Origin: Terracidiphilus sp.
GTDB taxonomy: Bacteria > Acidobacteriota > Terriglobia > Terriglobales > Acidobacteriaceae
Length of the DNA stretch: 64,000 nt
Direction: 5' to 3'
Assembly (NCBI GenBank): GCA_049521075.1
Contig: JBEKPD010000003.1
Coordinates: 47,766-111,765, forward strand
Shown here piece by piece: positions 2,801-18,509 of the stretch (position 1 is the stretch's first letter; every line of letters begins with the position of its first letter). Below the pieces are notes generated by a model. The model did no database searches. It was given only the letters and a program-made list of their open reading frames with translations, and was not told the DNA's origin. The translations under genes and the position numbers were made by a program.

Positions 2801-2901
2801 TCGGCCTTTCGGAGGGCCGGAGGCAATACCACTTCGCTGCGCTCAATGGGACGAGCACGGTTTTACCACATGCCGAATTCACAGAATGGTGGCCGGGGAC
2901 G
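2801..2901 (-). repeat. Distal copy of tRNA-Phe 3' end (CGTCCCCGGCCACCA, 2887-2901) plus the ~85-bp spacer that follows the tRNA at 18.3-18.4 kb; att-like
   Basis: 14/15 match to the tRNA 3' end CGTCCCTGGCCACCA. The adjoining sequence aligns with 18351-18434 (shared tcggcctttcggagggcc, ggcaatac, acttcgctgcgctcaatgg, acagaa). Confidence 0.85.
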
Positions 2902-3038
2902 CTACTGATAAGTCGTCTCAGGGGCGAAATTTTGCAGAAATCTGCAGAAATCTGCTGCCGAAGACCTTTTTATAGAAGCGAGCCGATCGGTTAAAGATTC
3001 ACAGATGCCAATTTTCTCGTCCCTCATTGTCTCATTAC

Positions 3039-3050
3039 ACAAACGATTGT
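3039..3050. promoter_or_regulatory. Putative LacI-family operator ACAAACGATTGT (auxiliary, upstream of GH30-1)
   Basis: Matches the recurrent palindrome ACAAnCGnTTGT with central CG typical of LacI-family operators. Confidence 0.6.
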
Positions 3051-3340
3051 CTAAAGTAGATTTTCTAAAGGCGCGGAAAGGAGTACTGTGCGCCCTCCCG
3101 TTTGTTCCATTTGATACCCGCTTGTGAGCGATTGCTGAGACGGGAGATGGACCTGCGACGCGCTGGCCGGAGTTCGGCTGCGCCTGGTTTATTTTTGATC
3201 AATTGGGCTTCGTGAATTGCCTTCGGAATTTGCGTTGGCAGAATATCTGCTAGTCCGGATTGAAGGGAATAACACGTAAGCCCGGACATGTCGTCTGCAA
3301 TATGCCGCTTGACAATCCAGATAATCCTCTGCTTTCATCC

Positions 3341-3369
3341 TTGACAGTCCAAAAATTCCGTTCTAAAGT
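3341..3369 (+). promoter_or_regulatory. Sigma70 promoter for the GH30-GH55 operon
   Basis: TTGACA-N17-TAAAGT, with an operator 10 nt downstream. Confidence 0.7.
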
Positions 3370-3378
3370 ATCGCGTTA

Positions 3379-3390
3379 ACAATCGGTTGT
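3379..3390. promoter_or_regulatory. Putative LacI-family operator ACAATCGGTTGT just downstream of the predicted TSS
   Basis: Palindromic consensus match in a classical repressor position. Confidence 0.7.
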
Positions 3391-3458
3391 CTTGACCATA
3401 TTCGAGAAGCATCGACAGTACGAAGCGGCGTAACCATTCGCCGAAGCAAGAGGAAATT

Positions 3459-4868
3459 ATGACCTTGAAGCGCATTTTTCTTATCCTTTTTTCCGCTCTA
3501 ATTCTCTTTGCGACAGCCTCTCGAGCGCAAAACACACAAGATGCGCAGGTCTGGCTGACGACGGGCGACCGAAACGCGTTGCTCACTCACGAACCGGACG
3601 CTCTGCATTTTTCCGATGTGAAGAGCGACGCGCCGACAATTGAAGTGAACGACATGCAACAGTACCAACCGATCGAAGGGTTTGGGTTTGCGCTGACGGG
3701 CGGAAGCGCGCAGCTGCTGATGCAGATGACGCCGACGCGGCGAAGCGAGTTGCTGGGGCAGCTCTTCACGGCCAAGGGAGACGGGATCGGAGTGAGTTAT
3801 CTGAGGGTGAGCATCGGCTCCTCAGATATGAACGATCACGTGTACTCGTACGACGATATGCCGGCCGGCCAGACTGATGCGAAGCTCGAGAAATTCAGCC
3901 TTGCCCCGGATGGGGCGACGGTGATTCCGGTCTTGAAGGAGATCCTGGCCATCAATCCGCAGATTAGGATTCTGGGGTCGCCCTGGTCGGCGCCAGCGTG
4001 GATGAAAACCAACGGCGCGGTAAAGGGCGGGGAACTGAAACCGGAGTTCTACGAGGCGTACGCGCAGTACCTGACGAAGTATGTCGAGGGCATGAAGGCG
4101 GAGGGGATCAACGTCACTGCCATTACCGTAGAGAACGAGCCGCTAAACCCGAAGAATACGCCGAGCATGGTTGTGTTTGCGTCGGAAGAGGATGAACTGA
4201 TTGCAAAGCACCTGGGGCCGGCGTTTGAGAAAGCCGGAATCAAGACAGAGATCCAGCTGTACGATCACAATCCGGATGTGATTTCTTACCCGCTATCGAT
4301 CCTGGCAGACGCCGCGGCGAGCAAGTATGTGGCGGGAACGGCATTTCATCTGTATGGCGGCGACAGTTCTGCGCTGACGTGCGTGCACAACCAGTATCCG
4401 AACAAGAATCTTTATTTGACGGAGCAATCAGTGGGCGGCCGGCCGAGCGCGACATCGATTGATATCACCGAGCCGGTGAGCCGCGTCCTGATTGGCGCCA
4501 CGCGGAACTGGGCGCGCAATGTGTTGCTGTGGAATCTGGCGGCAGATCCGCATGCCGGGCCGCACACGAACGATGGCGGATGTCCGGTCTGCTACGGTGC
4601 GATCACCCTTGATGGCGATCAGGCGCGGTTCAACGTGGCCTACTATGCGCTGGCCCATTTCTCAAAGTTTGTGCCGCCGGGTTCGGTGCGGATCGGTTCG
4701 AATGAACTCGAGCAGCTTTCGACAGTGGCGTTTTTGACGCCGGACGGAAAGGTTGTTCTGGTCGCAGTGAACACGGGAAATTTTCCGAAGACTTTCCAGA
4801 TTGAATACCATGGGCAGAGCGTGACGGCGACGCTGCGCCCGGAGTCGGCTGCGACCTATGTGTGGTGA
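3459..4868 (+). CDS. GH30 glycoside hydrolase, resembling GH30_3 beta-1,6-glucanases; Sec signal peptide
   Basis: YQPIEGFG, YLRVSIGSSD, SPWSAPAWMK, acid/base NEPL, nucleophile LTE, C-terminal beta-sandwich; hydrophobic N-terminus ending in ASRA. Confidence 0.88.
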   Translation: MTLKRIFLILFSALILFATASRAQNTQDAQVWLTTGDRNALLTHEPDALHFSDVKSDAPTIEVNDMQQYQPIEGFGFALTGGSAQLLMQMTPTRRSELLGQLFTAKGDGIGVSYLRVSIGSSDMNDHVYSYDDMPAGQTDAKLEKFSLAPDGATVIPVLKEILAINPQIRILGSPWSAPAWMKTNGAVKGGELKPEFYEAYAQYLTKYVEGMKAEGINVTAITVENEPLNPKNTPSMVVFASEEDELIAKHLGPAFEKAGIKTEIQLYDHNPDVISYPLSILADAAASKYVAGTAFHLYGGDSSALTCVHNQYPNKNLYLTEQSVGGRPSATSIDITEPVSRVLIGATRNWARNVLLWNLAADPHAGPHTNDGGCPVCYGAITLDGDQARFNVAYYALAHFSKFVPPGSVRIGSNELEQLSTVAFLTPDGKVVLVAVNTGNFPKTFQIEYHGQSVTATLRPESAATYVW

Positions 4869-4886
4869 GATTGGGAGGCTGCGGCG

Positions 4887-6653
4887 ATGAATCGAAGGGA
4901 AGGAAGAGCCGGAATGCGCGCTGCGAAAATCAAGTTGGGTGTGGCCTTGCTGGCAGGAGTGTTTGCCGGCGAATTCGCGCGGGCTGGGGCGCAGGTGTCG
5001 AAGAAGCCGGACCTCGGGCCGAATGTGATGATCTTCGATCCCTCGATGCCGGCCGCGGAGATTCAGGCGCGGATTGACAAGGTCTACGCCGTCGAAGAGA
5101 AGAGCGAGTTCGGCACAGCGCGGTATGCGCTGCTGTTTTTGCCGGGCAAGTATCACGTGGATGTGCCGGTGGGATTCTACACACAGGTACTGGGGCTGGG
5201 TGCAACGCCGGATGCGGTGGAGATTGACGGTAATGTGCACTCGGACGCGAGCCTGCCACACAACAATGCGACGTGCGCTTTCTGGCGCGCGGCAGAAGGG
5301 TTTTCAGTGACGCCCGCAGGTGGAACGATGCAGTGGGCGGTGTCGCAGGCAGTTCCGTTCCGGCGGATGCACGTGCGCGGCAACCTGGTGCTGCATCAGA
5401 ATCACGGATGGGCAAGCGGTGGGTGGATGTCGGACTCGCTCGTGGACGGCAACGTGGATTCGGGATCGCAACAGCAGTGGATCTCGCGCAACAGCGAGTG
5501 GGGAAGCTGGACGGGATCGAACTGGAACATGGTGTTTGTGGGAGTGATTTCTCCGCCGGCGGGGGAGTGGCCGGCTCCGCCGTATACCAAGGTGGATCGC
5601 GCGCCGCTGGTGCGAGAGAAGCCCTTTCTTCAGGTAGACGGGAATGGGAGCTGGAGCGTGCGTGTCCCCGAGCTGCGAAGAGACAGCAGAGGAATCACGT
5701 GGCATGGCGGCGAGACGCCCGGCCGATCGGTTCCCTTGAGTCATTTTTATGTAGCGCGGCCGGGTGTGGACACGGCAGCAAGCATGAACGCGCAATTGGC
5801 CAAAGGTAAAGATCTGTTGTTGACGCCGGGGAACTATGAACTCGACGATACGATTCGTGTGACGCGGCCGAATACGGTCGTGATGGGCCTGGGATACGCA
5901 ACGCTGAAGCCGACGCATGGAACACCGGCAATGACGACGGCCGATGCGGACGGGATCGACATTGCGGGCGTGCTATTCGATGCGGGCGCGGAGAAGTCGC
6001 CCGTGCTGCTGCGGGTGGGGCCGAAGGGAAGCAAGGCGAGGCATCGATTGAATCCGATTTGCCTGCACGATGTGTTTTTCCGCGTGGGTGGAGCAGGCGT
6101 AGGGAGTGTGGAGGTTGATCTCGAGATTAACAGCTCCGACACAATTGTGGACCACACATGGATCTGGCGTGCAGACCACGGGGCCGGCGTGGGATGGGAC
6201 AAGAACCTGAGCGCGAATGGGATGGTTGTGAACGGCGCGGACGTGACAGCGTATGGATTATTTGTCGAGCATCACCAGCAGTACCAGGTACTGTGGAATG
6301 GGAACGGCGGCCGGACGTATTTCTATCAATCGGAGATTCCCTACGATCCGCCGGACCAGGCAAGCTATACGAGCGCGGCAGGCGTGGATGGATGGGCATC
6401 TTATAAAGTGGCTTACGGCGTGACTCGGCACGAGGCGTGGGGGCTGGGAATCTATAGCGTGTTCCGTCACCCGAATGTGGTGCTGACCAGGGCGATTGAG
6501 GTGCCGGTGACGCCGGGTGTGCGATTCCACCACATGATTACGGTGGCGCTGGACGACAAGGGCGCGATCGAGAACGTGATCGACGATGCGGGGGGACCCA
6601 CGTCGATCGCGCCTCGGGTAACGCCGAAGGTTTCGGAATTTCCACAACAGTGA
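4887..6653 (+). CDS. GH55 exo-beta-1,3-glucanase (bacterial laminarinase type), secreted
   Basis: GPNVMIFDPS, YALLFLPG, GFYTQVLGLG, FWRAAE, WAVSQAVPFRR, SQQQWISR, DHTWIWRADHG and QSEIPYD follow the Streptomyces GH55 (SacteLam55A-like) motif order. The start may be 4914. Confidence 0.85.
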   Translation: MNRREGRAGMRAAKIKLGVALLAGVFAGEFARAGAQVSKKPDLGPNVMIFDPSMPAAEIQARIDKVYAVEEKSEFGTARYALLFLPGKYHVDVPVGFYTQVLGLGATPDAVEIDGNVHSDASLPHNNATCAFWRAAEGFSVTPAGGTMQWAVSQAVPFRRMHVRGNLVLHQNHGWASGGWMSDSLVDGNVDSGSQQQWISRNSEWGSWTGSNWNMVFVGVISPPAGEWPAPPYTKVDRAPLVREKPFLQVDGNGSWSVRVPELRRDSRGITWHGGETPGRSVPLSHFYVARPGVDTAASMNAQLAKGKDLLLTPGNYELDDTIRVTRPNTVVMGLGYATLKPTHGTPAMTTADADGIDIAGVLFDAGAEKSPVLLRVGPKGSKARHRLNPICLHDVFFRVGGAGVGSVEVDLEINSSDTIVDHTWIWRADHGAGVGWDKNLSANGMVVNGADVTAYGLFVEHHQQYQVLWNGNGGRTYFYQSEIPYDPPDQASYTSAAGVDGWASYKVAYGVTRHEAWGLGIYSVFRHPNVVLTRAIEVPVTPGVRFHHMITVALDDKGAIENVIDDAGGPTSIAPRVTPKVSEFPQQ

Positions 6654-6674
6654 GCACTTCTGTACCGAGACGGA

Positions 6675-8111
6675 TCAGGCCCACTGCAGCGTGAGGACGG
6701 AATCGGCAGGCAGGTTCGCGCGAATAACTTTTCCCTGGAACACACACAGCATATCGCTTTCTTTGCCCTGATTGGTTAGAACCAGAACGAACGTGCCGTC
6801 GGGATTGGCGAAGGCGACGTGTTCGACACCGGGAAGCGATGAGTTGCTTGCGATGACGCGCGCTCCGCGTTGCACCGTCTTCGAGTAGTGCGCAAGTGCC
6901 CAGTACTGACCGCTGCGGGTAAGCTGTTGGGCTTTCGAGTCGATGGTGACGACGCCGCCGCAGGTGAACGGACCGAGGTTCGGGCCGCCTTTCTCGTTGA
7001 GCAATAGATTCCAGGCGACAGCACAGCAGGCCCAATTCCTGAAGATCTGTGCATAGGAAGCGGACCACTTTGCCCAGCCGGTGAGGTAATCGGAGTCTGT
7101 GATAAGGGGACCGTATTCGGTGAAGTAGGCGCTTTTCGACGGGAAGGCATCGTGGACGCGCGTCATCGCGTCGGGTTCGCCGGCGTAAGCGTGCCATGCG
7201 ACGCCATCGACAAAGCGGCCGACGTCGGGATCGCTGAGCAAGTCCAGGACGCGGCCCCACAGATTGAAGTTGTGATCGAGGAGCCAGATTTTCGTGTCGA
7301 GTGATGCGTTGGCGAGTGCGGGACCGAGGAAGCTTTTGATGAACTCGCCTTCGTATTCCTGGCCCCAGAGAGTAGCCGGCATTCTGCCGTCCTGGTCGGT
7401 GTCGACTTCGTTTTGAATGGTGACAGCGCGAATGTGGATGCCGGCGGCCTTATAAGCATCGATGAACTTAACGAAGTATTGCGCGTAAGAATCGAAAAAA
7501 TGCTTCCGCATGGAGCCACCGAGAAGCGAGTCGCCGGTTTTCATCCACGCAGGCGGGCTCCAGGGCGTGGAGAAATAGAAAAGGTCGGGCCGGATGGAGA
7601 CAGCTTCACGAAGAGTAGGCAGAATGTATGCGCGGTCGTGCTCGATGCCGAAATGGGTGAGATCGGGATCGGGGGTTTGCGTGTCGTCAAATGTGTAAGT
7701 GGCGAGCGAATAGTCGCTGGAGCCGATGCAGGTGCGTCCAACAGAAAGGTTTAAGCCAGCCGTGGAGAAGAGTTCTTGGAGCAAGCAATGACGTGCGTCG
7801 GAGTTCATCTGATTGAAAAGAAAGCAGGATGAATCGGTAAACGCGCCACCGAACCCGAGGATGCTCTGAAAGGTTCGCGATGGGTCGACCTCGATCATGT
7901 GAGCCCCCGCAGAAGGGTGCAATCCGGTTGGCGCCTGCCAACCGGGGAGGGAAATCTCCTGGTATCGCTGGCTGCCGGCCGTCAGCCAGGCTCGGAGTGG
8001 GCCACCGGCAGACGCCAGCTGGGCGCGCGACTGTAACCCCTTGGCACAAACCATTGCTCCAAAGCAAGATGCCGCATTCCCAAGAAAAGCACGACGTGAA
8101 GCGGGACACAT
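6675..8111 (-). CDS. Second GH30 glycoside hydrolase with Tat signal
   Basis: Start MCPASRRAFL (Tat). Motifs FQSILGFGGAFTD, RTCIGSSDY, PWSPPAWMK, QNEVD, DHN, AWHAY, YFTE. Confidence 0.85.
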   Translation of the reverse strand: MCPASRRAFLGNAASCFGAMVCAKGLQSRAQLASAGGPLRAWLTAGSQRYQEISLPGWQAPTGLHPSAGAHMIEVDPSRTFQSILGFGGAFTDSSCFLFNQMNSDARHCLLQELFSTAGLNLSVGRTCIGSSDYSLATYTFDDTQTPDPDLTHFGIEHDRAYILPTLREAVSIRPDLFYFSTPWSPPAWMKTGDSLLGGSMRKHFFDSYAQYFVKFIDAYKAAGIHIRAVTIQNEVDTDQDGRMPATLWGQEYEGEFIKSFLGPALANASLDTKIWLLDHNFNLWGRVLDLLSDPDVGRFVDGVAWHAYAGEPDAMTRVHDAFPSKSAYFTEYGPLITDSDYLTGWAKWSASYAQIFRNWACCAVAWNLLLNEKGGPNLGPFTCGGVVTIDSKAQQLTRSGQYWALAHYSKTVQRGARVIASNSSLPGVEHVAFANPDGTFVLVLTNQGKESDMLCVFQGKVIRANLPADSVLTLQWA

Positions 8112-8151
8112 AAAGTTTCTCCGTACCCCTATGATCGCAGAAAATCGATTT

Positions 8152-8167
8152 AGACAAGCGATTGCCT
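8152..8167. promoter_or_regulatory. Putative LacI-family operator AGACAAGCGATTGCCT upstream of GH30-2
   Basis: Near-palindromic match to the island consensus. Confidence 0.55.
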
Positions 8168-8262
8168 CTAATGAGGCATACCGAACGGCGCTTGTATGGC
8201 ATGACGCACGACCCCATAGCCACACCCACTAGGATAAATCGTTTAATGGAAATCATACTGAC

Positions 8263-8274
8263 TCAAACGATTGT
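8263..8274. promoter_or_regulatory. Putative LacI-family operator TCAAACGATTGT in the divergent GH30-2/TBDT spacer
   Basis: One mismatch to ACAAnCGnTTGT, followed by CT like the other copies. Confidence 0.55.
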
Positions 8275-8292
8275 CTACAACACACAAATGAC

Positions 8293-8322: not shown

Positions 8323-8360
8323 CGCTCCCGCGCTCGGAAATGCTGGCATAAGCGCTTAAA

Positions 8361-8488: not shown

Positions 8489-11400
8489 ATGAAGACTTTG
8501 TCGAGATGGATTTTACCCCTTCTTCTGTTGACCAGCTGGTTGCTGGTTGGTGGAAGCAGGGCGAGTTTCGGACAGGCCGTAAGCTCAGGCGACATCCGAG
8601 GGACTGTGACAGACACCACCGGAGCGTTGGTGGCTGGAGTTACGGTTACGGTTTTAGACGTGGACACCGGAGTTTCAAGGGATTTCGCTACCAACCAGGA
8701 CGGGTTGTATGACACCTCCGCGATTGTGGCGGGACACTACAAACTTACGTTCAAAAAAACGGGGTTTGAGACCTTTGTACGCGGCCCTCTCACTATCGAT
8801 GTGGGCCTTACAGCCGTGGACGCACAATTGAAAATTGGCGATGTCTCAGTCGCTGTAACAGTCACCACCGATGTTCCACTGTTGAACACCGTAAGCGGCG
8901 ACCAGACCTCGACTCTGGAAGCACAAACGATGGATCAGCTTCCTCAGGTGGGTACGGCTAACAACAGCGGCAACAGCTGGGAAAATTTCATCACTCTGCT
9001 ACCGGGCATCGCCGGCACCGCAGGCGGACAGCAAGGCGCTGCCAGCCCTGGTCAAGAGCCTTCTTCTAACGGCAATATGCCGTTTTCGAACGTGCTCAGC
9101 GACGGATCGTCCACCACGCTCGATCACAGCCAGAATGCCAACCCCGCGACCTTCGACGACTTGGCGGAAGTCCAGATCTCCCTTTCCTCGTTCTCCGCGC
9201 AGTACGGCGTGGGCGGATTGATCATCAATCAGGTGACTAAGGGTGGGACCGACAAGTTTCATGGCACCGCGTACGAGTACTTCATGAACAATGACTTGAA
9301 TGCGGCGCCCTTTGAATTTGGGAACACACTAACCCGTGCGCAGGCGGTTCCGTTCCTCCGCTACAACGACTATGGCTTCACCGTTGGTGGACCCATTGCC
9401 GTCGGCCCGTTCAAGAAGAAAGCCTTCTTCTTCTTCGGCTACGACCGAATCGACAACAACACCAATACCAGCGGTTTCCAGACACTTCCCACCGCGGGCG
9501 TCATGGCCGGCAACTTCAACAGCACCAACGGCGACAACATCGCTTACTACAACCTGTACGATCCGACTACCCAGACCATCGCTCACGATTCTTTGGGCAA
9601 TCCGTATCCGGTTAGGAAGACGTTCGCTAGCGAAAATCCCTCGCTGGGCAACGCGATTCCTGCCGCGCTGCAGGACTCCGTCTCCCAGAAATTCCAAGCG
9701 TTGTTTCCGACCGGCTCGAATGATGTCGGTGAGTATGTGAGCGGTACAGCGAAGGCAAACTTCCTCCAGAATAACTGGCACGATAGTTATGCGCAGCCCC
9801 GCCCGTGGCGGCGATATTTCGGGCGCATGGACTACGACATTAACCGTAATAACCGGCTGACGCTGGTCGATAACCAGGGCGACGAACTAGAGAACGGCGA
9901 TAACTCGGTTACCGCGTGCCCGATCGCCTGCCAGCTGGGCGATGTAGATAACAACACTGCCTCAATCACCGACGTGTGGAACATCGGCCAGCGCACCATC
10001 AACGAAGCCCGAATGGGATACACCGACCAATTGAACTTCTTCACGGACTCCACCACGGGTCAGGACTATCCGACGAAGCTCGGCTGGCAATTTGCCGAGT
10101 ACAATATTCTTCCCAACGTCACCATCAACAATTATTACAACCTCGGGCCGGCGACCAACGCCATCTATAAGGAGATGACGTTCGATCCTTCCGATGTGGT
10201 GACCATGATCCGTGGCAATCACGTCCTTCACTTCGGCGGCGAACTGGCATTTTATCGCGACGACTCTACGGCGTGGGGCAACCTCCACTCCGGGGAATTC
10301 ACCTATAGTGGCCAATACACCCAGCAATGGGCCCTTTCGAACGCCAATTGCCCGACGGGCACACCGGCTGCGGACACGTGCGCAGCTCCAAACACTGCCA
10401 CGGGTTCATCGTATGCCGACTTCCTGCTTGGCTATGCGCAAAAGTGGGACGCGCAGAACACTCCGGAGTTCGGCGCTCGTCTGAAGAAGCCGCAGATGTT
10501 CGTCCAGGACGATTGGAAGGCGCGCAGGAACCTCACAGTCAATCTTGGGCTGCGCTATGAAATCAGTCACGGCTACAGCGAAGTCAAGGGGAATGAAGCC
10601 AGCTTCGACCCGACGGTGACGAACACGGACGGCACGCTGGGAGCCATGTGGTATGGGGAGACACATGCCAACGGGCGCACAGCAATGGAGGCCAACGTCT
10701 TTTCCACCTTCATGCCGCGCCTGGGGTTCTCTTGGCAGGCAATACCCAAGACTACGGTTCGTGGTGGGTACGGGCTCTACTCCTATAACTTCAGCCTGGA
10801 TAACTATGCCTCCGGAATGGGCTCATCCGTCTCATCCTTTGGTAGCTACACCGATGTATCGAATGGCATCTATCCGGTGACCAAGTTTAACGGAACCGGC
10901 ACAATCTTCCCATTGGGTGGTGGACCCGCAGGGCCTTTGCCTTATACGGCGGCTTCTACCTCTCCGGGAAGGTTCAACGGCTCGAGCACGCCCGCCTACA
11001 GCGAATTTCACACTCCGGTTCCCAAGGCAGAGCAATGGAACTTTGGCGTGGAGCGGGAATTGAGCACGGACTATGTGGTTACCCTCTTCTATGTGGGAAG
11101 CCACGGGTTCAACCTCACCATGCCAACCGACCTGAACGCAGTTCCTGAAAGTAAGTTATCGTCCAACGATGCGGCAGCTCGTCCATACTCGAATTTCACA
11201 AACATCACGGGCAATCTTTACAACGCGGTCTCGAACTACCACTCATTGCAGGTTGCGGTCACCAAGCGCATGAGCCATGGCTTTAGTACGAGCTTCAATT
11301 ACACCTGGTCGCACATGCTGGACGACATGGACTCCTCCGGTTGGGGAAGCCACGCCGGGTTCCAGGGTTGGCAGCATGCCACCAGTCTCACGCAGAATCT

Positions 11401-12031: not shown

Positions 12032-12053
12032 CTTCAACCAACACTCACCTAAT

Positions 12054-12083: not shown

Positions 12084-12131
12084 GTGTTTAACAAGAAGCA
12101 TCGCGTTGTTGCAACTCCTATAATGAGGGTT

Positions 12132-13343
12132 ATGAATCTGCAGATCAGAGGAGTTATTGGATATCTCATGCTATTGATCGCCGGGATATGCAAGGCGCAG
12201 ACGGGAACCTACCCTCAGGCAGAGTTTTCCAGACATATCCAGCAAGCGCAGAGATACCTGGCGGAAAAGCGGCCTGATCTCGCGATTCCTGAACTGCAGA
12301 CGGCGGTAACCATCGATCCAGACAGCGTTGAAACGCAAAGCAATCTCGGTGTGCTGTTGTTTTTTCAAGGCAAGGCGGCCGAGGCGATCCCGCATTTGCG
12401 CATCGCAGTTGAGAAACAGCCGGCCCTCAGCAAAATCCAGGGGATTTTAGGGATTGCGGAACTACACGCGCAGGATTTCGCAGAGGGGCGGAAGGATCTG
12501 GAGACAGCCTTCCCCACGATTGACGATCAGAAATTCAAATTGCAGGTGGGCCTGGAACTCGTGGGAGTCTATACGGACAGCGGCGATCTTGAGCAGGCGG
12601 CCGGCATCCTCGCGCAGTTGAAAAAGGTCGCACCCGACAATCCGGAAGTGCTTTATGCTTCTTACCGGACCTTCACGGATCTCTCGAGCGAGGCCATGAT
12701 TGCGCTCTCGCTTGCGGCTCCCGATTCAGCGCAGATGCATCAATTACTCGCGCACCAGGAAATCAAAGAGGGGAATACGAATGTCGCGATCGCCCAGTAC
12801 CGGAAGGCGATTGCAATCGATCCGCGTTTGCCGGGTGTGCACTTCGAACTGGCGGAGTTGTTGCGCACATCGCACGATCCCGCAGTGAAAGAGCAGGCGG
12901 AGCAGGAGTATCGCGCCGCGCTTCAGGAAAACCCGCAGGACGAAAAAGCGATTTTCGCAATGGCGGAGATTGCCGAGACCAAGGGTGACACGCAGCAAGC
13001 ATACAACGACTATTCGCAGGCAGTGGCGCTCGATCCCGGCGATGCGAATGCGAAGTTGGGTTTGGCCAAGGTGCTTATTGGGATGGATAAGCAGGACAAG
13101 GCACTGCCGCTGCTTGAGGCCTCGGCGCAACTCGAGCCGACGAACGCGACCGTACACTACAGGTTGGCCATGCTCTATAGAAAGATGGGTCGCGTGGACG
13201 ACGCCAAGCGCGAAGTTGAGCTTTACCAGAAGTTCAAGGACATGAAGGAAAAGCTTCGCGCCGTATATAGCGGACTTCTCATCCAGCCGGATGAAATCCG
13301 CGCGGACGAGAATCCGGAAGAGGAACCATCTGAAAAGAAATGA
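12132..13343 (+). CDS. Exported tetratricopeptide-repeat protein
   Basis: Signal-like N-terminus. Multiple TPR units (AIAQYRKAIAIDP, AYNDYSQAVALDP, VHYRLAMLYRKMG). Start uncertain (12084/12123/12132). Confidence 0.85.
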   Translation: MNLQIRGVIGYLMLLIAGICKAQTGTYPQAEFSRHIQQAQRYLAEKRPDLAIPELQTAVTIDPDSVETQSNLGVLLFFQGKAAEAIPHLRIAVEKQPALSKIQGILGIAELHAQDFAEGRKDLETAFPTIDDQKFKLQVGLELVGVYTDSGDLEQAAGILAQLKKVAPDNPEVLYASYRTFTDLSSEAMIALSLAAPDSAQMHQLLAHQEIKEGNTNVAIAQYRKAIAIDPRLPGVHFELAELLRTSHDPAVKEQAEQEYRAALQENPQDEKAIFAMAEIAETKGDTQQAYNDYSQAVALDPGDANAKLGLAKVLIGMDKQDKALPLLEASAQLEPTNATVHYRLAMLYRKMGRVDDAKREVELYQKFKDMKEKLRAVYSGLLIQPDEIRADENPEEEPSEKK

Positions 13344-13356
13344 AGCAGACCGATCG

Positions 13357-15156
13357 ATGAGATTGCGGATCGTGATTCTGAAACTCTCTGCTGCGCTTTC
13401 ATTTCTCGCGTTTGAACAGATGATTGGCGCGCAAATGGGAACGCCAACACCCCTGTCCCCCGCAGAGCGCCAAAGGGCTGAGGCGGAAAAAGCCGCTACC
13501 GGGCCTGTCCCGAATTACCCGCAGCTCGTCGATATTACAAAATTAACCGGAATCACCTTCGACCATAAGTCGAGCCCGGAAGCCAGGTTCATTGCGGAAT
13601 CTATGAGCGGAGGAGTCGCGCTGATCGATTACGATGGCGACGGATGGCCAGATATCTATTTCACCAATGCGCAAAGCGTCAATATGGCGCTGCACGGTGT
13701 TAAGTCGCGCGGCGTTCTCTTACGCAACAATCACGATGGCACATTTACCGACGTGACCGACAAGGCGGGTGTCGGTTATCCTTGCTGGGCGATGGGGGCC
13801 GTCGCCGGTGACTACAATAACGACGGCCTGCCCGATCTTTTGGTTACTTGTCTCAACGGCGTGGTGCTCTATCGTAACAATGGCGACGGCACGTTTACCG
13901 ATGTGACTAAAGCAAGCGGGCTCGATGCCGACACCGGTTGGGCTACAGGTGCGGCGTTCGGAGACTATGACAATGACGGCCGCGCCGACTTGTTTGTGTC
14001 GCATTACGTAGATTTTCGTTTGGACAACCTGCCGGTCTTCGGGTCGGGCAAAGGGTGTAAGTACCTCGGACTGGACGTTCAGTGCGGTCCGCGCGGATTA
14101 AAAGGGCTGCCGGACAATCTCTATCACAACAACGGCGATGGGACCTTCATAGACATTTCAAAGCAGGCTGGCGTGGATGATGCCGAGCGCCGCTTCGGAC
14201 TGACTTCAATTTGGTCGTACTTCGGTGACGACGGGAAACTCGATCTCTTCGTAACTAACGACGGTGAGGCGAATTATCTGTACCAGAGTGACGACTCCCG
14301 TAAGTTTGAAGACGTTGCGCTGTTGGCAGGTGTCGCGGCCAATGAGGACGGAGTGGAGCAGGCGAACATGGGCGTGGCGTACGGCGATTACCTGCACTCC
14401 GGTCGCATATCGCTGGCTATCTCGCATTTCGATGTGGAGTACACAGCGCTCTACAGTAATGAAGGCGGCATGAATTTTACCGATAACTCCATCGCCTCAG
14501 GCATCGCGCGCGGGACGCAAGGTTATGTTGGCTGGGGCGATGCCTTTGTGGATTTCGCCAACAGCGGCTGGCAGGATTTCTTTCAGGTCAACGGTCACGT
14601 GTATCCGCAAGTCGATACGGCGCACACGGCGACGCGCTATCTGGAGCCGAAACTTCTGTTTCTAAATCGCGGCGACGGCACGTTCCAGGACATCAGCCGA
14701 CGCGTAGGGCCGGCGCTCCAGATTCCCCAGGTGAGCCGCGGCCTCGCCGTGGGCGACTTATTCAATGACGGCCGCGTGGAAGCGGTGGTGGAGAATCTTG
14801 TAGGCGAGCCGATGATCCTCCGACCTGAGGGGGGCCCGAAGAATCATTGGGTCAGCTTTCAGCTCCAGGGAGTCACCTGCAATCGACTTGCGCTGAACGC
14901 TCGAGTTCGCGTGGCTGCGGGAGATCTGGTGCAACTTGGCGAGGTCATAAGCGGAGGAAGCTATCTTTCGCAGAGCGATTTGCGTCTCCATTTTGGGTTG
15001 GGCAGTCATGAGCTTCTCGATCAGGTCAAGGTGTTATGGCCGGATGGAAAGAAAGAAATTCTGACTCACTTGGCTGCCGACCGGTTTTATGTGCTGCGCG
15101 AGGGCCAGGGAGTGATTTCAAGCAAGCCGGCCGAGCATTCCACGAATCTTCCATAG
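13357..15156 (+). CDS. CRTAC1-family protein (FG-GAP/VCBS repeats + ASPIC/UnbV domain), exported
   Basis: Repeated DYDGDGWPD / DYNNDGLPD / NNGDGTFTDVT Ca-binding repeats. C-terminal SGGSYLSQSDLRLHFGLG...WPDG is typical of ASPIC/UnbV. Confidence 0.88.
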   Translation: MRLRIVILKLSAALSFLAFEQMIGAQMGTPTPLSPAERQRAEAEKAATGPVPNYPQLVDITKLTGITFDHKSSPEARFIAESMSGGVALIDYDGDGWPDIYFTNAQSVNMALHGVKSRGVLLRNNHDGTFTDVTDKAGVGYPCWAMGAVAGDYNNDGLPDLLVTCLNGVVLYRNNGDGTFTDVTKASGLDADTGWATGAAFGDYDNDGRADLFVSHYVDFRLDNLPVFGSGKGCKYLGLDVQCGPRGLKGLPDNLYHNNGDGTFIDISKQAGVDDAERRFGLTSIWSYFGDDGKLDLFVTNDGEANYLYQSDDSRKFEDVALLAGVAANEDGVEQANMGVAYGDYLHSGRISLAISHFDVEYTALYSNEGGMNFTDNSIASGIARGTQGYVGWGDAFVDFANSGWQDFFQVNGHVYPQVDTAHTATRYLEPKLLFLNRGDGTFQDISRRVGPALQIPQVSRGLAVGDLFNDGRVEAVVENLVGEPMILRPEGGPKNHWVSFQLQGVTCNRLALNARVRVAAGDLVQLGEVISGGSYLSQSDLRLHFGLGSHELLDQVKVLWPDGKKEILTHLAADRFYVLREGQGVISSKPAEHSTNLP

Positions 15157-15226
15157 AACTCGAGCGGCCCTGTCGATTCGCGACGAAGGATTGCATTGAA
15201 GTGGCGAACGAACGAGTTGAAAAATC

Positions 15227-16411
15227 ATGATCGACGAAACCACAACGGCAACCGTCGTTCCCACGCAGAGAACGTCATCGACGATCGCCTTGAGCGCCGG
15301 ATTCGCATTGACGGGCGCAGGCACTGTAATGATGGGCGTGCTGTTGCCGGTGCTTTCATTACGCTGGGGATTGCGCGACGATCAGGCTGGGCTGCTCCTT
15401 TTTCTGCAATTCGTGGCATGCGCACTGGGCGCCATTGTCACTGGGCGAAATCGCGTTTACACAATGACGATCGGCTACGGGCTGCTGGCGGCCACACTCG
15501 GCCTGCTCGCGATTGATGGCAGCCGGGCAGCATACGCCGCATTTTTCCTTTATGGATTGGGATTGGGTATGGCCATGACCTCGACCAGCCTGCTCTTCGC
15601 GAATCGCTGGGGCGATGCCAGCGCTGCTAAATTGGAGTGGCTGAACTTTGTCTGGTCGGCCGGGGCCACCGCGGGTCCGGTATGCTTTTTGCCGCTGCTG
15701 AGGCGCGGCGATCTTCGATCGCTGTTCGTGACCATGGCCGCGTTGTCGTTCGCGATGCTGGTGTGGGTGGTGTCGCAGGAGGGCAATGAAAGGGAGCGCC
15801 ACGACCCGCATTTCGACGCCGCGGGGCAACCCGGCGCAATTCGCGGATCCCTCAGAGGTCTGATCGCAATACTCCTTTTGCTGACCATGATCACGGTTGG
15901 CATGGAGGCTGCTTTGAGCGGCTGGCTTACGACCTATTCGCAGCGCGTAGGGATGCACAGTCTGGCCGGGGCAGCCTTGGCGACATCCATGTTCTGGTTG
16001 GGAGAGATGGCAAGCCGGCTAGTTTTTTCCACGCGCCTTTTGGCAAAAGTCGGCCGCGGGGCAGCATTGCAGGCGTGCTCCTGGGGCGTAGCGGCCATGG
16101 CAATTCTGATCGTAGCGGCTCCAAGACCGTCACTGATCCTCGTTGCTGCCGCCGCCGCAGGTGCGTTCGTCGGTCCGCTTTACCCGTTGCAGCTTTCCTT
16201 CCTGCTTGAGCTTTCTCCTTGGGGCTGGTTTTTCGCGGTTGGAGGCATTGGAGCTGCCTTCGTCCCCTGGGTCACGGGGCTAATCTCAGCAAACTTTCAT
16301 TCGCTCCGGCTTGGAATGACGGTTCCATGTCTCGCGGGATTTGCGATGATTGCACTCAACGTGCTGGTTATCCGACGCATCACTCCGGAAAACAGTTCCG
16401 CCATCCAATAA
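15227..16411 (+). CDS. MFS transporter (fucose/glucose permease-like)
   Basis: About 12 hydrophobic segments. Resembles FucP/TsgA-like permeases. Located in a sugar locus. Confidence 0.8.
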   Translation: MIDETTTATVVPTQRTSSTIALSAGFALTGAGTVMMGVLLPVLSLRWGLRDDQAGLLLFLQFVACALGAIVTGRNRVYTMTIGYGLLAATLGLLAIDGSRAAYAAFFLYGLGLGMAMTSTSLLFANRWGDASAAKLEWLNFVWSAGATAGPVCFLPLLRRGDLRSLFVTMAALSFAMLVWVVSQEGNERERHDPHFDAAGQPGAIRGSLRGLIAILLLLTMITVGMEAALSGWLTTYSQRVGMHSLAGAALATSMFWLGEMASRLVFSTRLLAKVGRGAALQACSWGVAAMAILIVAAPRPSLILVAAAAAGAFVGPLYPLQLSFLLELSPWGWFFAVGGIGAAFVPWVTGLISANFHSLRLGMTVPCLAGFAMIALNVLVIRRITPENSSAIQ

Positions 16412-16425
16412 ACATTGTCGCGATG

Positions 16426-16441
16426 AGACAATCGTATGTCT
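16426..16441. promoter_or_regulatory. Putative LacI-family operator AGACAATCGTATGTCT upstream of the regulator
   Basis: 16-bp near-perfect palindrome. Confidence 0.6.
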
Positions 16442-16633
16442 ATATAGATACTATGACTTCTAGCCGTAACAGTCCGGCCCCGCAGCACCATGAGCTCCGT
16501 CTTCTTCGGTACTACGCGCTTAGTAAATGCCAAATATTCAACAATAAATCCCCAAATTGGCTTGACATTGACAATGCCTCAAGCGTCTAATGAAGCACAA
16601 AAAGAAAATGCCTGATTCCTGCTTTACATTGAG

Positions 16634-16645
16634 TTAATCGATTGT
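16634..16645. promoter_or_regulatory. Putative LacI-family operator TTAATCGATTGT (autoregulatory)
   Basis: Right half is identical to consensus (CGATTGTCT). Lies just downstream of a TTTACA -35-like hexamer. Confidence 0.55.
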
Positions 16646-16879
16646 CTTATGAGCATGGACGGGCGCGTCGAACTAGTCTGGATGCTAACTTGGACCGGTC
16701 AGTCGTCGAAAAGGGTCGCGCCTGGGCCGCTTGGCAGGCGCTGCCGAGGTTTGATTTCGCTCCGCTACGTCATTTTGATCTGCGTGATCTGCGGTCGATC
16801 AGCTTTACGCGCAGGGCGATCGACTTCCCGCTGTAGAATCAACCGTGAACCCCGCTGCTAAAAGGTTTGAGCAGACAGG

Positions 16880-17938
16880 ATGAAGGATTCCACGAGCGAC
16901 AAGAAGGCCAAAACATACGTGAAGCCGCGGATCCACCAGCCCGCGAGCCTGAAGCAGCTTGCCGAACATCTCGGGCTGAATCCGGCAACGGTTTCAGTGG
17001 TTTTGAACGACGTGCCGGGACGATCCATTCCGCAGGCCACCCGCGACCGCATCAAGGCTGCCGCCAAAGCCATGAACTACCAGCCGAATCTGCTGGCGCG
17101 CTCCCTGCGCAACCGCCGGACATTGACCATCGGCATCCTGGTGCCGGAACTCGGCGATGGCTATCACACGCAGGTGATGAGCGGTATCGGCGATCAGTTG
17201 ATTCAGGCGGGATATTTTTACTTTACAGCGCATCACCGACACAAGCCGAATCTGGTGGAAGAGTACACGCGGATGCTGATTGGGCGCGGTGCTCAAGGGC
17301 TGATTGCAATCGACACGCAGCTCGAGCACCCGGTTTCGATTCCGATGGTCGCGGTGGCGGGCCACCGCCATATCGAGGGCGTAACTAATGTGTTGCTCGA
17401 TCATGCGCGTGCTGCCGTGCTTGCCCTCGAGCATCTCTACGCACTGGGACACCGTAAAATCGCATTCATGCGCGGGCAACCTTTTAGTTCAGACTCAGAT
17501 GAGCGATGGAAGAGCCTCATGGCAGTCGCCGAGCGGCTCGGCATTGAAATCAAACCAGAACTCGTGGTGAGCCTCGATCGCGATATGAGTTCACCGGAAC
17601 TGGGTTACCCGGTAGCACAGCAGTTGCTCGCGACAAAGCTGCCGTTTACCGCGATTGTAGCCTTCAACGATATTTCGGCAATCGGTACAATTCGCGCGTT
17701 GAAGGATTCCAATTTGCGCGTTCCGGAAGACATATCGGTAATAGGCTTCGACGATATCAAGGCGGCGGCATTCACTCTGCCTCGTTTGACGACGATCAAT
17801 CAGCCGCTCGAGGAGATGGGCAGAGTAGCGACACAAAGCCTTCTGAATCGCATCCATAATACAGTGCCGCCGCGCGACGAAATCATGGTTGAGCCGGAGC
17901 TGATCATTCGCGAATCGACAGGCCCAGTAAAGGGATGA
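16880..17938 (+). CDS. LacI-family transcriptional regulator
   Basis: HTH SLKQLAEHLGLNPATVSVVLN, hinge YQPNLLARSL, sugar-binding domain AFNDISAIG, DISVIGFDD, LTTINQP. Confidence 0.95.
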   Translation: MKDSTSDKKAKTYVKPRIHQPASLKQLAEHLGLNPATVSVVLNDVPGRSIPQATRDRIKAAAKAMNYQPNLLARSLRNRRTLTIGILVPELGDGYHTQVMSGIGDQLIQAGYFYFTAHHRHKPNLVEEYTRMLIGRGAQGLIAIDTQLEHPVSIPMVAVAGHRHIEGVTNVLLDHARAAVLALEHLYALGHRKIAFMRGQPFSSDSDERWKSLMAVAERLGIEIKPELVVSLDRDMSSPELGYPVAQQLLATKLPFTAIVAFNDISAIGTIRALKDSNLRVPEDISVIGFDDIKAAAFTLPRLTTINQPLEEMGRVATQSLLNRIHNTVPPRDEIMVEPELIIRESTGPVKG

Positions 17939-18187
17939 AGCATCTACATTCTGCAGGGACGATTAACCTGCGGAAAGTGCGGGGACCGTTTTGCCTAGGC
18001 TTGGCTAGTCTGACACCGGAGTATTTTGCTCCGTCCTCGACAGGCAGCTCATTTGAGGAATCTTGAGTTGCCCCCAGAACCAGTAGGCCGTCAAGGAATG
18101 AGAGGGAACTTGGCGGGAACGGTAGCTAAGAAAAAAATAGGGATTTAGCTCATTTCTGAGCTTGGATGAGACGCGCTGAATCGCAAA

Positions 18188-18318
18188 TAGTGCGGCAAGG
18201 GACGGGCCCCTGTCGGTATTACCCCGCCGACTAATCGGCCTTTCGGAGGGCCGCGGGCAATACTACTTCGCTGCGCTCAATGGCGAGCGCTACCTACGGA
18301 CACGCAGAATTTACAGAA
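18188..18318 (-). repeat. Second, more degenerate tandem unit (spacer + degenerate tRNA-Phe 3' half)
   Basis: Spacer at 18235-18318 is nearly identical to 18351-18434. tagtgcggcaagggacggg...ccgccgac is a decayed copy of tggtggccagggacggg...ccgccgac. Confidence 0.65.
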
Positions 18319-18434
18319 TGGTGGCCAGGCACGGGATTGAACCGCCGACGCCGGCCTTTCGGAGGACCGCGGGCAATACTACTTCGCTGCGCTCAATGGC
18401 GAGCGCGACCTACGGACACGCAGAATTTACAGAA
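18319..18434 (-). repeat. 116-bp tandem unit: spacer + duplicated tRNA-Phe 3' half (altered anticodon arm, T arm, ACCA)
   Basis: 18319-18359 repeats 18435-18475 with one substitution; the period is 116 bp. Confidence 0.9.
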
Positions 18435-18509
18435 TGGTGGCCAGGGACGGGATTGAACCGCCGACGCCGGCCTTTTCAGGGCCGCGCTCTACCACTGAGC
18501 TACCTGGCC
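18435..18509 (-). tRNA. trnF: tRNA-Phe (GAA)
   Basis: GGCCAGG acceptor stem, D arm GCTC-AGTGGTA-GAGC, anticodon loop CT-GAA-AA, T loop GTTCAATC, encoded CCA. Confidence 0.97.

What the first reader, a model, noticed from the sequence alone, without database searches (positions are those of the whole stretch)
2887..18509. ~15.4-kb integrase-less island at tRNA-Phe carrying a complete glycan-utilisation regulon
Seen: the tRNA-Phe 3' end (CGTCCCTGGCCACCA) reappears 15.5 kb downstream as CGTCCCCGGCCACCA (2887-2901), followed by the same ~85-bp spacer that follows the intact tRNA. Everything between is one functional unit with its own regulator and operators, and no recombinase ORF appears in the six-frame track. 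Known: tRNA 3' ends are classic tyrosine-integrase att sites. Inference: a whole polysaccharide-utilisation locus was delivered as an integrative cassette that either lost its integrase or is mobilised in trans. The GH53/GH15 genes beyond the distal att suggest this tRNA is a hotspot for accumulating glycan genes.
Basis: partly seen in the sequence, partly recalled or inferred. Interest (0 to 1): 0.72.

Follow-up and report, generated by a model that had tools for sequence, protein, structure and literature searches.

The report
Decayed tRNA-Phe island carrying beta-glucan genes
A 15-kb block of fungal beta-glucan-degrading genes in a peat Terracidiphilus sits between leftover attachment sites of a dead integrase element next to tRNA-Phe, an ordinary decayed genomic island with an odd landing site.

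Summary
The last 15 nt of tRNA-Phe (18435-18509, minus strand) recur at 2887-2901, followed by about 85 nt that are 82% identical to the sequence after the tRNA.

- **The "spacer" is a pseudo-tRNA repeat.** It belongs to an array of tRNA-Phe-derived repeats (18190-18434) that about 14 related species also carry.
- **The near attachment site is not the tRNA.** The inner boundary is the worn 3' end of the second pseudo-tRNA (18190-18204).
- **An integrase-element remnant exists.** 18043-18189 matches the integrase-upstream arm of P4-type integrase elements found at this tRNA in five relatives (z = 4-15). The integrase gene itself is gone.
- **The cargo is not foreign.** The LacI-controlled GH30/GH55/TonB-receptor cluster is native to the genus (82-92% protein identity). 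Relatives keep it in the same order at another chromosomal site, not near tRNA-Phe.

None of the roughly 75 relatives that keep the tRNA-Phe/deaminase junction has these genes within 10 kb of it. The tRNA's downstream flank is hypervariable, and about 12 species carry an integrase there. It is a general hotspot, not a glycan-specific one.

In peat metagenome contigs the island looks fixed; no empty site was seen.

Verdict: an integrase-less island flanked by attachment sites (CIME-like). How the cluster got between the sites is unresolved.

The parts
18435..18509 (-). Intact tRNA-Phe(GAA) gene
   Evidence: ARAGORN; Rfam tRNA model at 67.7 bits. It is conserved next to the deaminase gene in about 75 of 80 relatives.
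18319..18434 (-). Pseudo-tRNA unit 1 (type 1). About 26 nt of spacer are followed by a degenerate tRNA-Phe copy with an 8-nt 'anticodon' loop, a normal T arm and a CCA end.
   Evidence: 116-nt tandem repeat, 97% identical. Its last 50 nt match the tRNA at 85% or better. Alignment to the tRNA and to units in relatives.
18190..18318 (-). Pseudo-tRNA unit 2 (type 2, T loop expanded to about 18 nt). Its worn 3' end at 18190-18204 (GTGCGGCAAGGGACG on the plus strand) is the proximal att core (attL).
   Evidence: The same type-2 unit occurs in L007, L009, L012 and L055. The element arm begins at the same roughly 52-nt spacing from this end as it does from the tRNA CCA end in relatives that carry an integrase.
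18043..18189 (-). Remnant of the integrase-upstream arm of a P4-type tyrosine-integrase element. It has a TTCCTTGAC -35-like box and a CTGGGGGCAAC repeat. The integrase ORF is missing.
   Evidence: Alignment A1 with L016, L019, L030, L069 and L075. Local alignment gives z = 14.6, 13.3, 9.0, 6.0 and 4.2 against shuffles; control loci give z < 1.
17939..18030 (+). Flank downstream of LacI that still belongs to the cluster. The junction with the element arm lies at about 18030-18042.
   Evidence: Homology to the LacI-downstream region of L098 runs to window 18035.
16880..17938 (+). LacI-family repressor
   Evidence: Pfam LacI and Peripla_BP_3. Homologs at 82-92% identity across Terracidiphilus.
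15227..16411 (+). MFS transporter
   Evidence: Pfam MFS_1. It holds the same position in L092 and L093.
13291..15156 (+). FG-GAP/ASPIC repeat protein
   Evidence: Pfam FG-GAP_3 and UnbV_ASPIC. Syntenic in relatives.
12084..13343 (+). TPR protein
   Evidence: Pfam TPR families. Syntenic in relatives.
8489..12031 (+). Acidobacterial-type TonB-dependent outer-membrane receptor
   Evidence: Pfam CarboxypepD_reg and OMP_b-brl_4, E = 1.5e-179.
6675..8225 (-). GH30 glycoside hydrolase (second copy)
   Evidence: Pfam Glyco_hydro_30 and Glyco_hydro_30C.
4887..6653 (+). GH55-like exo-beta-1,3-glucanase (LAM55_pectate-like)
   Evidence: PDB 4PEW, 4PEX, 4TYV and 4TZ1 match at E = 6e-168. PF27525 is recorded on its homologs, which are 75-92% identical.
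3459..4868 (+). GH30 glycoside hydrolase, closest to a GH30 structure from a beta-1,6-glucan locus
   Evidence: Pfam GH30. PDB 5NGK matches at E = 1.6e-84.
3037..3052 (.). LacI-type operator palindrome. The other six start at 3377, 8152, 8261, 8359, 16426 and 16632.
   Evidence: Of the 8 matches in the window, 7 lie inside the island; 1.9 are expected by chance in 64 kb and 0 of 100 shuffles reached 8. The motif sits at equivalent positions in relatives' clusters and is rare elsewhere, with 2 hits in 1.36 Mb.
2945..2989 (-). 15-residue remnant of a glyoxalase/VOC-type gene: a deletion scar just inside the distal att core
   Evidence: tblastn gives RSARFYKKVFGSRFL, 80% identical to the L078 product. 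Other genomes add 2-3 times extra contig depth at this spot.
2887..2901 (-). Distal att core (attR): the displaced 15-nt 3' end of the pseudo-tRNA/tRNA-Phe
   Evidence: 14 of 15 nt match the tRNA 3' end.
2801..2886 (-). Host flank: a spacer plus pseudo-tRNA unit 3, truncated at its anticodon-like stem. This is the continuation of the ancestral array.
   Evidence: The same arrangement (spacer plus a truncated third unit after the type-2 unit) occurs in L007, L009, L012 and L055. It is 82% identical to the proximal units.
1183..2286 (-). GH53 endo-galactanase. It lies outside the island and is itself accessory DNA.
   Evidence: Pfam GH53. Exact copies occur only in two peat contigs; the next best homolog is 68% identical, and named hits are Ktedonobacteria and Actinobacteria.

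Best explanation
The stretch 2902-18189 (15,288 nt) is the remains of a P4-family tyrosine-integrase element.

**Where it landed (shown).** The element recombined with the 15-nt 3' end of a tRNA-Phe-derived pseudo-tRNA. That pseudo-tRNA is the second unit of a repeat array that follows the real tRNA-Phe gene in this clade.

**What survives (shown).**
- Both att cores: attL at 18190-18204, now degenerate, and attR at 2887-2901.
- About 150 nt of the element's integrase-upstream arm.
- A 15-codon scrap of a VOC-type gene.
- The integrase gene and all other backbone genes have been deleted.

**What lies between the cores (shown).** A LacI-repressed cluster with seven operators carries two GH30 enzymes, a GH55-like exo-beta-1,3-glucanase, a TonB-dependent receptor, TPR and FG-GAP partner proteins, and an MFS transporter. 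Its inferred role is uptake and breakdown of beta-1,6/beta-1,3-glucan.

**How the cluster got there (inferred, about 0.45).** My preferred reading is that it rode in as cargo of the element from a related Terracidiphilus, and that deletions then removed the integrase gene and the backbone. About 0.3 goes to relocation within this genome into the already resident element.

**Present state.** The island cannot move on its own. It could at best be moved in cis or in trans by an incoming element with the same integrase specificity, recombining attR with the intact tRNA or unit-1 3' end. I put about 0.8 on the att-bounded decayed-element part and only the lower figure on the cargo route.
For: - **Direct repeats of the tRNA 3' end.** They flank the segment, and the flanks share 82% identity over 100 nt.
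- **Conserved junction, hypervariable flank.** The tRNA-Phe/deaminase junction is kept in about 75 of 80 species, while the downstream flank is hypervariable. None has these genes within 10 kb.
- **Integrases at the same site.** P4-type integrases (Arm-DNA-bind_3, Phage_int_M, Phage_integrase) lie 79-197 nt from the tRNA in L003, L019, L030, L069 and L075, with fragments in L004 and L016. A second integrase type sits there in L021, L029, L039 and L060.
- **Element arm in the window.** 18031-18189 aligns to the integrase-upstream arm of those elements at z = 4.2-14.6. Controls give z < 1, and the spacing from the core is the same.
- **Host array continues past the insertion.** The sequence outside attR matches the continuation of the ancestral array seen in L007, L009, L012 and L055.
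- **Cluster sits elsewhere in relatives.** It has the same order and operators there. In one genome, LacI lies at about 0.99 Mb and tRNA-Phe at about 0.355 Mb on the same contig.
- **Sharp ends of homology.** DNA homology to relatives stops at 3304 and at about 18030.
- **Composition.** GC steps from 0.565 to 0.604 at the tRNA.
- **Recurrent decay.** Similar arms without an integrase gene occur in L077, L006 and L008.
Against: - No integrase coding remnant survives, only non-coding arm sequence.
- The attL core matches attR at only 11 of 15 positions.
- The cluster is no closer to any relative than the core flank is: 82-89% nucleotide identity against 80-88%. Nothing therefore marks it as recently imported.
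- Its lower GC is also seen at its native site in relatives.
- No relative was found with this cluster on an integrase-bearing element.
- 2902-3303 has no homolog that would identify the element's other arm.
- No excised or empty form appears in metagenome contigs, although contigs drop rare variants.
Confidence: 0.45

Rival explanations
1. Relocation within this genome. A P4-type element integrated at the pseudo-tRNA and decayed. The genus-native beta-glucan cluster then moved from its normal chromosomal site into the element's interior by illegitimate or secondary-site recombination, replacing the integrase gene and the backbone. No horizontal delivery of the cluster took place.
For: - The cluster's divergence from relatives equals that of the core flank.
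- Its GC matches the same cluster in relatives.
- Its gene order and operators are the genus standard.
- Not a single element gene is left beside it.
- The junction lies only about 12 nt from the end of the LacI flank.
Against: - Both ends of a 14.7-kb block would have to land inside a resident element.
- No repeats, transposase or target duplication mark such a move.
- The native site in this genome could not be inspected.
Confidence: 0.3
2. The repeats are simply units of a pre-existing pseudo-tRNA array. The whole region (array, arm, cluster, array) was acquired or reshuffled by homologous recombination between array units, or with DNA from a relative. No site-specific event involved this particular 15 kb.
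For: - Array units occur in about 14 species, including ones with an empty site.
- Copy number varies from 1 to 4, and copies within a genome are 97-100% alike, so unequal crossing-over is active.
Against: - The distal break falls exactly 15 nt from a CCA end, the classical core position.
- The proximal break is followed by an element arm at the canonical spacing.
- Homologous exchange between units would not leave these landmarks.
Confidence: 0.15
3. Nothing was inserted. The arrangement is ancestral, and the short repeat is a chance or genome-wide repeat.
For: Contigs from several peat metagenomes all show the occupied form at depth equal to the flanks.
Against: - None of the roughly 75 relatives that keep the junction has the genes there.
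- The repeat is 100 nt at 82% identity, E = 5e-22.
- The repeat unit occurs only beside tRNA-Phe in 1.4 Mb of loci and in the window.
Confidence: 0.03

Closest known systems
[quoted passage not shown] 2004 and Bellanger et al. 2011)
   Same: The island is flanked by both att cores, has no integrase or transfer genes, and sits at a site where related integrase-bearing elements insert. Part of an element arm is still present.
   Different: - attL is degenerate and lies in a pseudo-tRNA rather than in the target gene.
- No accretion partner is present.
- Mobilisation is untested.
- The cargo is a genus-native metabolic cluster rather than element-specific genes.
tRNA-targeting genomic islands with P4-type integrases. 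The general model is in the Islander database (PMC4383910). From my own knowledge, examples at tRNA-Phe include the E. coli pheV/pheU islands and the Mesorhizobium symbiosis island, which has a 17-bp repeat.
   Same: A displaced 15-nt 3' fragment of tRNA-Phe marks the far end. In the relatives' intact elements, the integrase gene lies directly beside the tRNA. The flank is hypervariable across species.
   Different: The integrase gene is deleted here. The regenerated target is a pseudo-tRNA in a repeat array, so the real tRNA was never split.
Bacteroides beta-1,6-glucan utilisation locus (its GH30 enzyme is, from memory, the PDB 5NGK structure) and GH55 exo-beta-1,3-glucanases (PDB 4PEW series, from memory Streptomyces SacteLam55A)
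   Same: GH30 and GH55-type enzymes are combined with an outer-membrane TonB-dependent importer and a dedicated regulator.
   Different: There is no SusD partner. The receptor is the acidobacterial type with TPR and FG-GAP proteins. The regulator is LacI in place of a hybrid two-component system, although some relatives do have a Y_Y_Y sensor kinase next to the cluster.
Polysaccharide utilisation loci carried on integrative elements in Bacteroidetes (from my own knowledge, for example the porphyran locus on an ICE)
   Same: A whole glycan-utilisation unit lies inside the boundaries of an integrative element.
   Different: There is no conjugation or integration machinery, no sign of recent inter-species transfer, and the phylum is different.

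Membership tests
tRNA-integrated tyrosine-integrase genomic island | Lies at the 3' end of a tRNA gene and is bounded by a direct repeat of that 3' end | tested here: met
   The core at 2887-2901 matches the tRNA 3' end at 14 of 15 positions. The proximal core at 18190-18204 is the 3' end of a pseudo-tRNA-Phe 230 nt from the tRNA.
tRNA-integrated tyrosine-integrase genomic island | Integrase gene next to the att site | tested here: not met
   No integrase ORF or coding remnant was found. Only the non-coding upstream arm survives.
tRNA-integrated tyrosine-integrase genomic island | Absent from the same site in related genomes | tested here: met
   None of the roughly 75 species that keep the tRNA-Phe/deaminase junction has the island genes within 10 kb.
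tRNA-integrated tyrosine-integrase genomic island | Composition or phylogeny marks the cargo as foreign | tested here: not met
   GC is 0.565 against 0.604 in the core flank, but the cluster has the same GC at its native site in relatives. Its divergence equals that of the flank.
tRNA-integrated tyrosine-integrase genomic island | Excision gives a circular form and an empty site | tested here: inconclusive
   Only the occupied junction is seen in contigs of 6 runs and one JGI contig. Contigs drop rare variants, and no raw reads were available.
CIME (cis-mobilizable element) | [quoted passage not shown] | tested here: met
   Both cores are present and there are no integrase or transfer genes. 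attL carries 4 changes in 15 nt.
CIME (cis-mobilizable element) | Derived by decay from a functional element of the same site specificity | tested here: met
   The arm is homologous to that of integrase-bearing elements at tRNA-Phe in five relatives.
CIME (cis-mobilizable element) | Can be mobilised after accretion with an incoming element | not testable with these tools
   This needs an experiment with a cognate integrase or element.
LacI-controlled catabolic regulon | Repressor gene plus palindromic operators in the promoter regions of the regulated genes | tested here: met
   Seven palindromes lie in the three intergenic promoter regions and in the left junction, with none (at up to 2 mismatches) elsewhere in 64 kb. 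They are conserved at the same places in relatives. Binding itself was not tested.
Bacteroidetes-type PUL | Adjacent SusC/SusD pair | tested here: not met
   The TonB-dependent receptor is of the acidobacterial OMP_b-brl_4 type, and no SusD family hit was found. The cluster is PUL-like only.

The most novel reading that the evidence does not exclude
The conserved array of tRNA-Phe-derived pseudo-tRNAs after the real gene may be a selected feature rather than debris. It could be a co-transcribed tRNA-like RNA. Or it could be a landing pad whose extra att cores let integrase elements insert, pile up and decay without ever splitting the functional tRNA-Phe gene. If so, the att-flanked beta-glucan cluster would remain a cassette that community P4-type integrases can move.

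- The pseudo-tRNA bodies are 74-82% identical across 14 species, while the adjacent spacer is 37% identical.
- At least two loci (the window and L008) show elements inserted at a unit rather than at the tRNA.
- Against this, covariation support is weak and no RNA evidence was obtained.
Probability: 0.15. Interest if true: 0.6.

Novelty: new member of a known kind. Interest (0 to 1): 0.35.

Why it matters
- It gives a worked example, in poorly studied soil Acidobacteria, of how a tRNA integration hotspot turns over. Elements insert, lose their integrase, and leave att-bounded blocks of ordinary metabolic genes.
- It shows that a core carbohydrate-utilisation regulon can end up inside such a shell. 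That is one route by which glycan loci could become mobilisable between peat bacteria.
- The practical lesson for island prediction is that repeats beside a tRNA can belong to a pre-existing pseudo-tRNA array. The true att site may then not be the tRNA itself.
- The conserved pseudo-tRNA array is the only part that might lead somewhere new.

Tried and rejected
- **Integrase coding remnants.** tblastn of 10 integrases from relatives against the whole window gave only chance hits. The best, at 43708-43908, lies antisense in an outer-membrane efflux gene.
- **A supposed integrase start codon.** I first read 18008-18024 as a remnant of the integrase start. It is in fact homologous to the LacI-downstream flank of L098, so I dropped that idea.
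- **Rfam.** Nothing but the tRNA was found, even at E up to 10.
- **RNA structure of the pseudo-tRNA unit.** RNAalifold gave no convincing covariation.
- **Unit motif in viral contigs.** No hits.
- **Metatranscriptomes.** No run holds the array sequence. The contigs are too sparse to judge expression; only GH15/GH53 fragments were seen.
- **Empty-site search.** Logan contigs of 6 runs and the JGI metagenome collection showed only the occupied form.
- **The element's other arm.** 2902-3303 has no homolog in any locus except a 34-nt VOC gene scrap.
- **Glycan bias at the hotspot.** Rejected.
- **Composition as evidence of foreign origin.** Rejected, because relatives show the same offset at the native site.
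Full report
**Observation**

The window carries a single tRNA gene, tRNA-Phe(GAA), at 18435-18509 on the minus strand. Its last 15 nt recur, with one change, at 2887-2901 on the same strand. The roughly 85 nt that follow this copy (2801-2886) resemble the sequence that follows the tRNA: 81-82% identity over 100 nt, E = 5e-22, with a 50-nt core at 88-94%.

No recombinase ORF lies in between.

**Gene content**

Between the repeats lie these genes:
- GH30 (3459-4868)
- a GH55-like exo-beta-1,3-glucanase (4887-6653; PDB 4PEW series, E = 6e-168)
- a second GH30 on the other strand (6675-8225)
- an acidobacterial-type TonB-dependent receptor (8489-12031)
- a TPR protein, an FG-GAP/ASPIC protein and an MFS transporter
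- a LacI repressor (16880-17938)

The first GH30 is closest to PDB 5NGK (E = 1.6e-84). From memory, that structure is the beta-1,6-glucanase of a Bacteroides fungal-glucan locus.

Seven AGACAAnCGnTTGTCT palindromes sit in the promoter regions. All are inside the segment, against 1.9 expected by chance in 64 kb. The same motif sits at the equivalent places in relatives' clusters and is rare elsewhere, with 2 hits in 1.36 Mb. The reading of one regulated functional unit is sound. The likely substrate is beta-1,6/beta-1,3-glucan.

**Comparative context of the tRNA**

I scanned one genome per species with the secreted deaminase-like protein to the right of the tRNA. This returned 80 Terracidiphilus/Acidobacteriaceae loci at 67-84% protein identity.

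- In about 75 of them, tRNA-Phe sits in the same orientation just upstream of that gene. The right side (YjbR, SDR, LpxA) is syntenic.
- The other side, downstream of the tRNA 3' end, is hypervariable. Most ORF clusters there are singletons.
- No locus has any island gene, GH53 or GH15 within 10 kb.
- An ancestral-looking flank (GT2, an unknown protein, TldD and others) abuts the tRNA in L009 and L011, and lies within about 2 kb in L023, L028 and L034. It is displaced by 4.7-9 kb in L006, L013, L041 and L055.
- A P4-type integrase (Arm-DNA-bind_3, Phage_int_M, Phage_integrase) lies 79-197 nt from the tRNA in L003, L019, L030, L069 and L075, with fragments in L004 and L016.
- A second integrase type lies there in L021, L029, L039 and L060, and two further integrase hits turned up.

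So this tRNA is an active integration hotspot in the genus. The nearest two non-integrase ORFs in about 70 species hit 129 different Pfam families with no glycan bias. The hotspot is therefore general, not glycan-specific.

**What the "spacer" is**

Read in the tRNA's direction, the sequence after the tRNA is a series of degenerate tRNA-Phe copies. Each has these parts:
- a fast-evolving spacer of about 26-30 nt
- a 5' hairpin (GCGCTC...GAGCGC)
- a D-arm-like segment (GCGAAGTGGTATTGC, against GCTCAGTGGTAGAGC in the tRNA)
- an anticodon-like arm with an 8-nt loop
- then either a normal T arm and CCA end (type 1) or a T arm whose loop is expanded to about 18 nt (type 2)

About 14 relatives have such units, in 1-4 copies. 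They include species with an empty site.

The common layout is: tRNA, one or more type-1 units, a type-2 unit, then a third unit truncated near its anticodon-like stem (L007, L009, L012, L055). The window shows this layout interrupted. The tRNA, unit 1 and unit 2 (type 2) end at 18190. On the far side of the island come 15 nt of a unit's 3' end, a spacer, and a third unit truncated at the anticodon-like stem (2801-2901).

The insertion therefore sits exactly at the 3' end of the type-2 pseudo-tRNA. The shared spacer is ancestral host sequence on both sides.

**Element remnant**

Directly inside the proximal boundary, 18043-18189 is homologous to the region between tRNA-Phe and the P4-type integrase gene in L016, L019, L030, L069 and L075.

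- It has the same spacing of about 52 nt from the CCA-like end to a T-rich block.
- It has the same TTCCTTGAC box and the same CTGGGGGCAAC motif.
- With the core excluded, local alignment scores are 14.6, 13.3, 9.0, 6.0 and 4.2 standard deviations above shuffles. Loci with the other integrase type, or with empty sites, give z < 1.
- The homology stops about 25-35 nt before the point where the integrase start codon lies in the relatives. From about 18030 leftwards, the sequence is the LacI-downstream flank seen in relative L098.

The integrase gene and everything else of the element's backbone are gone.

At the other end, a 15-codon scrap of a VOC/glyoxalase-type gene (2945-2989) lies just inside the distal core. 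It is another deletion scar. Comparable arms without an integrase gene occur in L077, L006 and L008. L006, L041 and L055 share an old repeat copy next to an encapsulin operon. Decay of elements at this site is thus recurrent.

**Origin of the cargo**

The cluster is not foreign to the genus.

- The GH55-like protein and LacI have hundreds of Terracidiphilus homologs at 75-92% identity.
- In relatives the genes keep the same order: GH30, GH55-like, sometimes extra genes, GH30 on the other strand, receptor, TPR, FG-GAP, MFS, LacI.
- They sit in a chromosomal context without tRNA-Phe. On the LacI side the neighbours are BadF-type ATPase, MR_MLE and RraA genes, or FG-GAP and sulfatase genes. On the other side they are GH16 with a two-component system, or GH43 genes.
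- In one genome, both loci lie on the same 1.6-Mb contig about 640 kb apart (L033 and L094).
- DNA homology between the window and these loci runs from 3304 to about 18030 and stops sharply at both ends.
- Nucleotide identity of the cluster to relatives is 82-89%. That is comparable to the core flank's identity to the closest species, 80-88%.
- The cluster's lower GC (0.565 against 0.604 for the core side of the window) is mirrored at its native site in relatives, at 0.57-0.58 against 0.59-0.61.

Nothing therefore marks the cluster as a recent import. Equally, nothing shows whether this genome's native site is empty.

**Population data**

Exact copies of the GH53 protein and of the left junction occur in peat and soil metagenomes from several studies.

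- In four runs, the left flank and the island have equal contig depth of about 8-12x.
- In five of the six runs examined, one contig spans the left junction; in the sixth (X4) a contig ends at 2928, just inside it. No run yielded an alternative contig.
- The one JGI contig holding the host-flank sequence is identical to the window across the junction.
- No empty-site or circular form was seen, but assembled contigs cannot exclude rare variants.
- Metatranscriptome contigs were too sparse to say anything about the island or the array.

**Interpretation**

The structure is best filed as a decayed, integrase-less island flanked by att sites, which is the definition of a CIME (PMC5704250). It derives from a P4-type element at the tRNA-Phe hotspot. 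It follows the classical tRNA-island logic, in which a displaced gene fragment marks the far end (PMC4383910).

- **Shown:** the att cores, the arm remnant, the absence of the genes from this site in relatives, the native location of the cluster elsewhere, and the conserved regulon.
- **Inferred:** that a site-specific event created the boundaries, and how the cluster came to lie between them.

I lean slightly towards delivery as cargo from a related strain followed by deletion of the integrase gene (about 0.45). Relocation within the genome into a resident element gets about 0.3. An origin by homologous exchange among array units gets about 0.15.

The proximal core now matches the distal one at only 11 of 15 positions. 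Excision between them is unlikely. Recombination of the distal core with the intact tRNA 3' end (14 of 15 matches) or the unit-1 3' end (13 of 15) remains conceivable if a cognate integrase is supplied.

**Novelty and interest**

A degenerate island at tRNA-Phe is ordinary. The cargo being a genus-core glycan regulon, and the landing site being a pseudo-tRNA inside a conserved tRNA-derived array, are modest twists.

The array itself is the most curious element. Its pseudo-tRNA bodies are 74-82% identical across 14 species whose neighbouring spacer is 37% identical. Yet there is no convincing covariation, no Rfam match and no RNA evidence. It stays unexplained.

Noticed in passing
window 18190-18434; L007, L008, L009, L012, L027, L034, L037, L041, L055 downstream of tRNA-Phe: A tandem array of tRNA-Phe-derived pseudo-tRNAs with a 5' hairpin, an 8-nt anticodon-like loop, and in type 2 an 18-nt T loop. 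The bodies are 74-82% identical across 14 species, against 37% for the spacers between them. ARAGORN and Rfam do not call them as tRNAs, and covariation is weak.
   Followed up: partly
L008 about 9560-9610; window 18190-18204: Integrase elements or their remnants begin after the 3' end of a pseudo-tRNA unit rather than after the real tRNA. The units therefore act as extra attachment sites.
   Followed up: partly
window 2945-2989 (minus strand): A 15-residue scrap (RSARFYKKVFGSRFL) of a glyoxalase/VOC-type gene. The same motif in other genomes adds 2-3 times extra metagenome contig depth at 2957-2991.
   Followed up: yes
window 1183-2286 and 1-1098; L081: The GH53 galactanase has no close relatives (the next best is 68% identical; named hits are Ktedonobacteria and Actinobacteria). 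With GH15, an SDR and MgtC it forms further accessory DNA outside the distal att core, possibly an older island. No further repeat copy lies within 2.4 kb beyond the window start.
   Followed up: partly
window 3037-3052: An extra LacI-type operator lies in the junction DNA (2902-3303), which has no homolog in relatives. It suggests a lost upstream gene of the regulon.
   Followed up: no
L016 2556-7013 and 8857-9470: Another species has a truncated P4-type integrase at tRNA-Phe, followed by a 1486-residue protein with a GH55-like domain (43% identical to the window's enzyme).
   Followed up: no
L004 9447-9663: A C-terminal integrase fragment lies next to an inverted 3' end of a different tRNA-like sequence (TGGTGGCGAGGGACGGAATCCAACCC).
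   Followed up: no
L006 2682-2696; L041 2317-2331; L055 6997-7011: A shared old copy of the tRNA 3' end lies next to an encapsulin/DyP-peroxidase operon. It bounds integrase-less islets of 2.7-7 kb in three species.
   Followed up: partly
window 2921-2955: A small tandem repeat, gcagaaatctgcagaaatctgc, lies just inside the distal att core.
   Followed up: no
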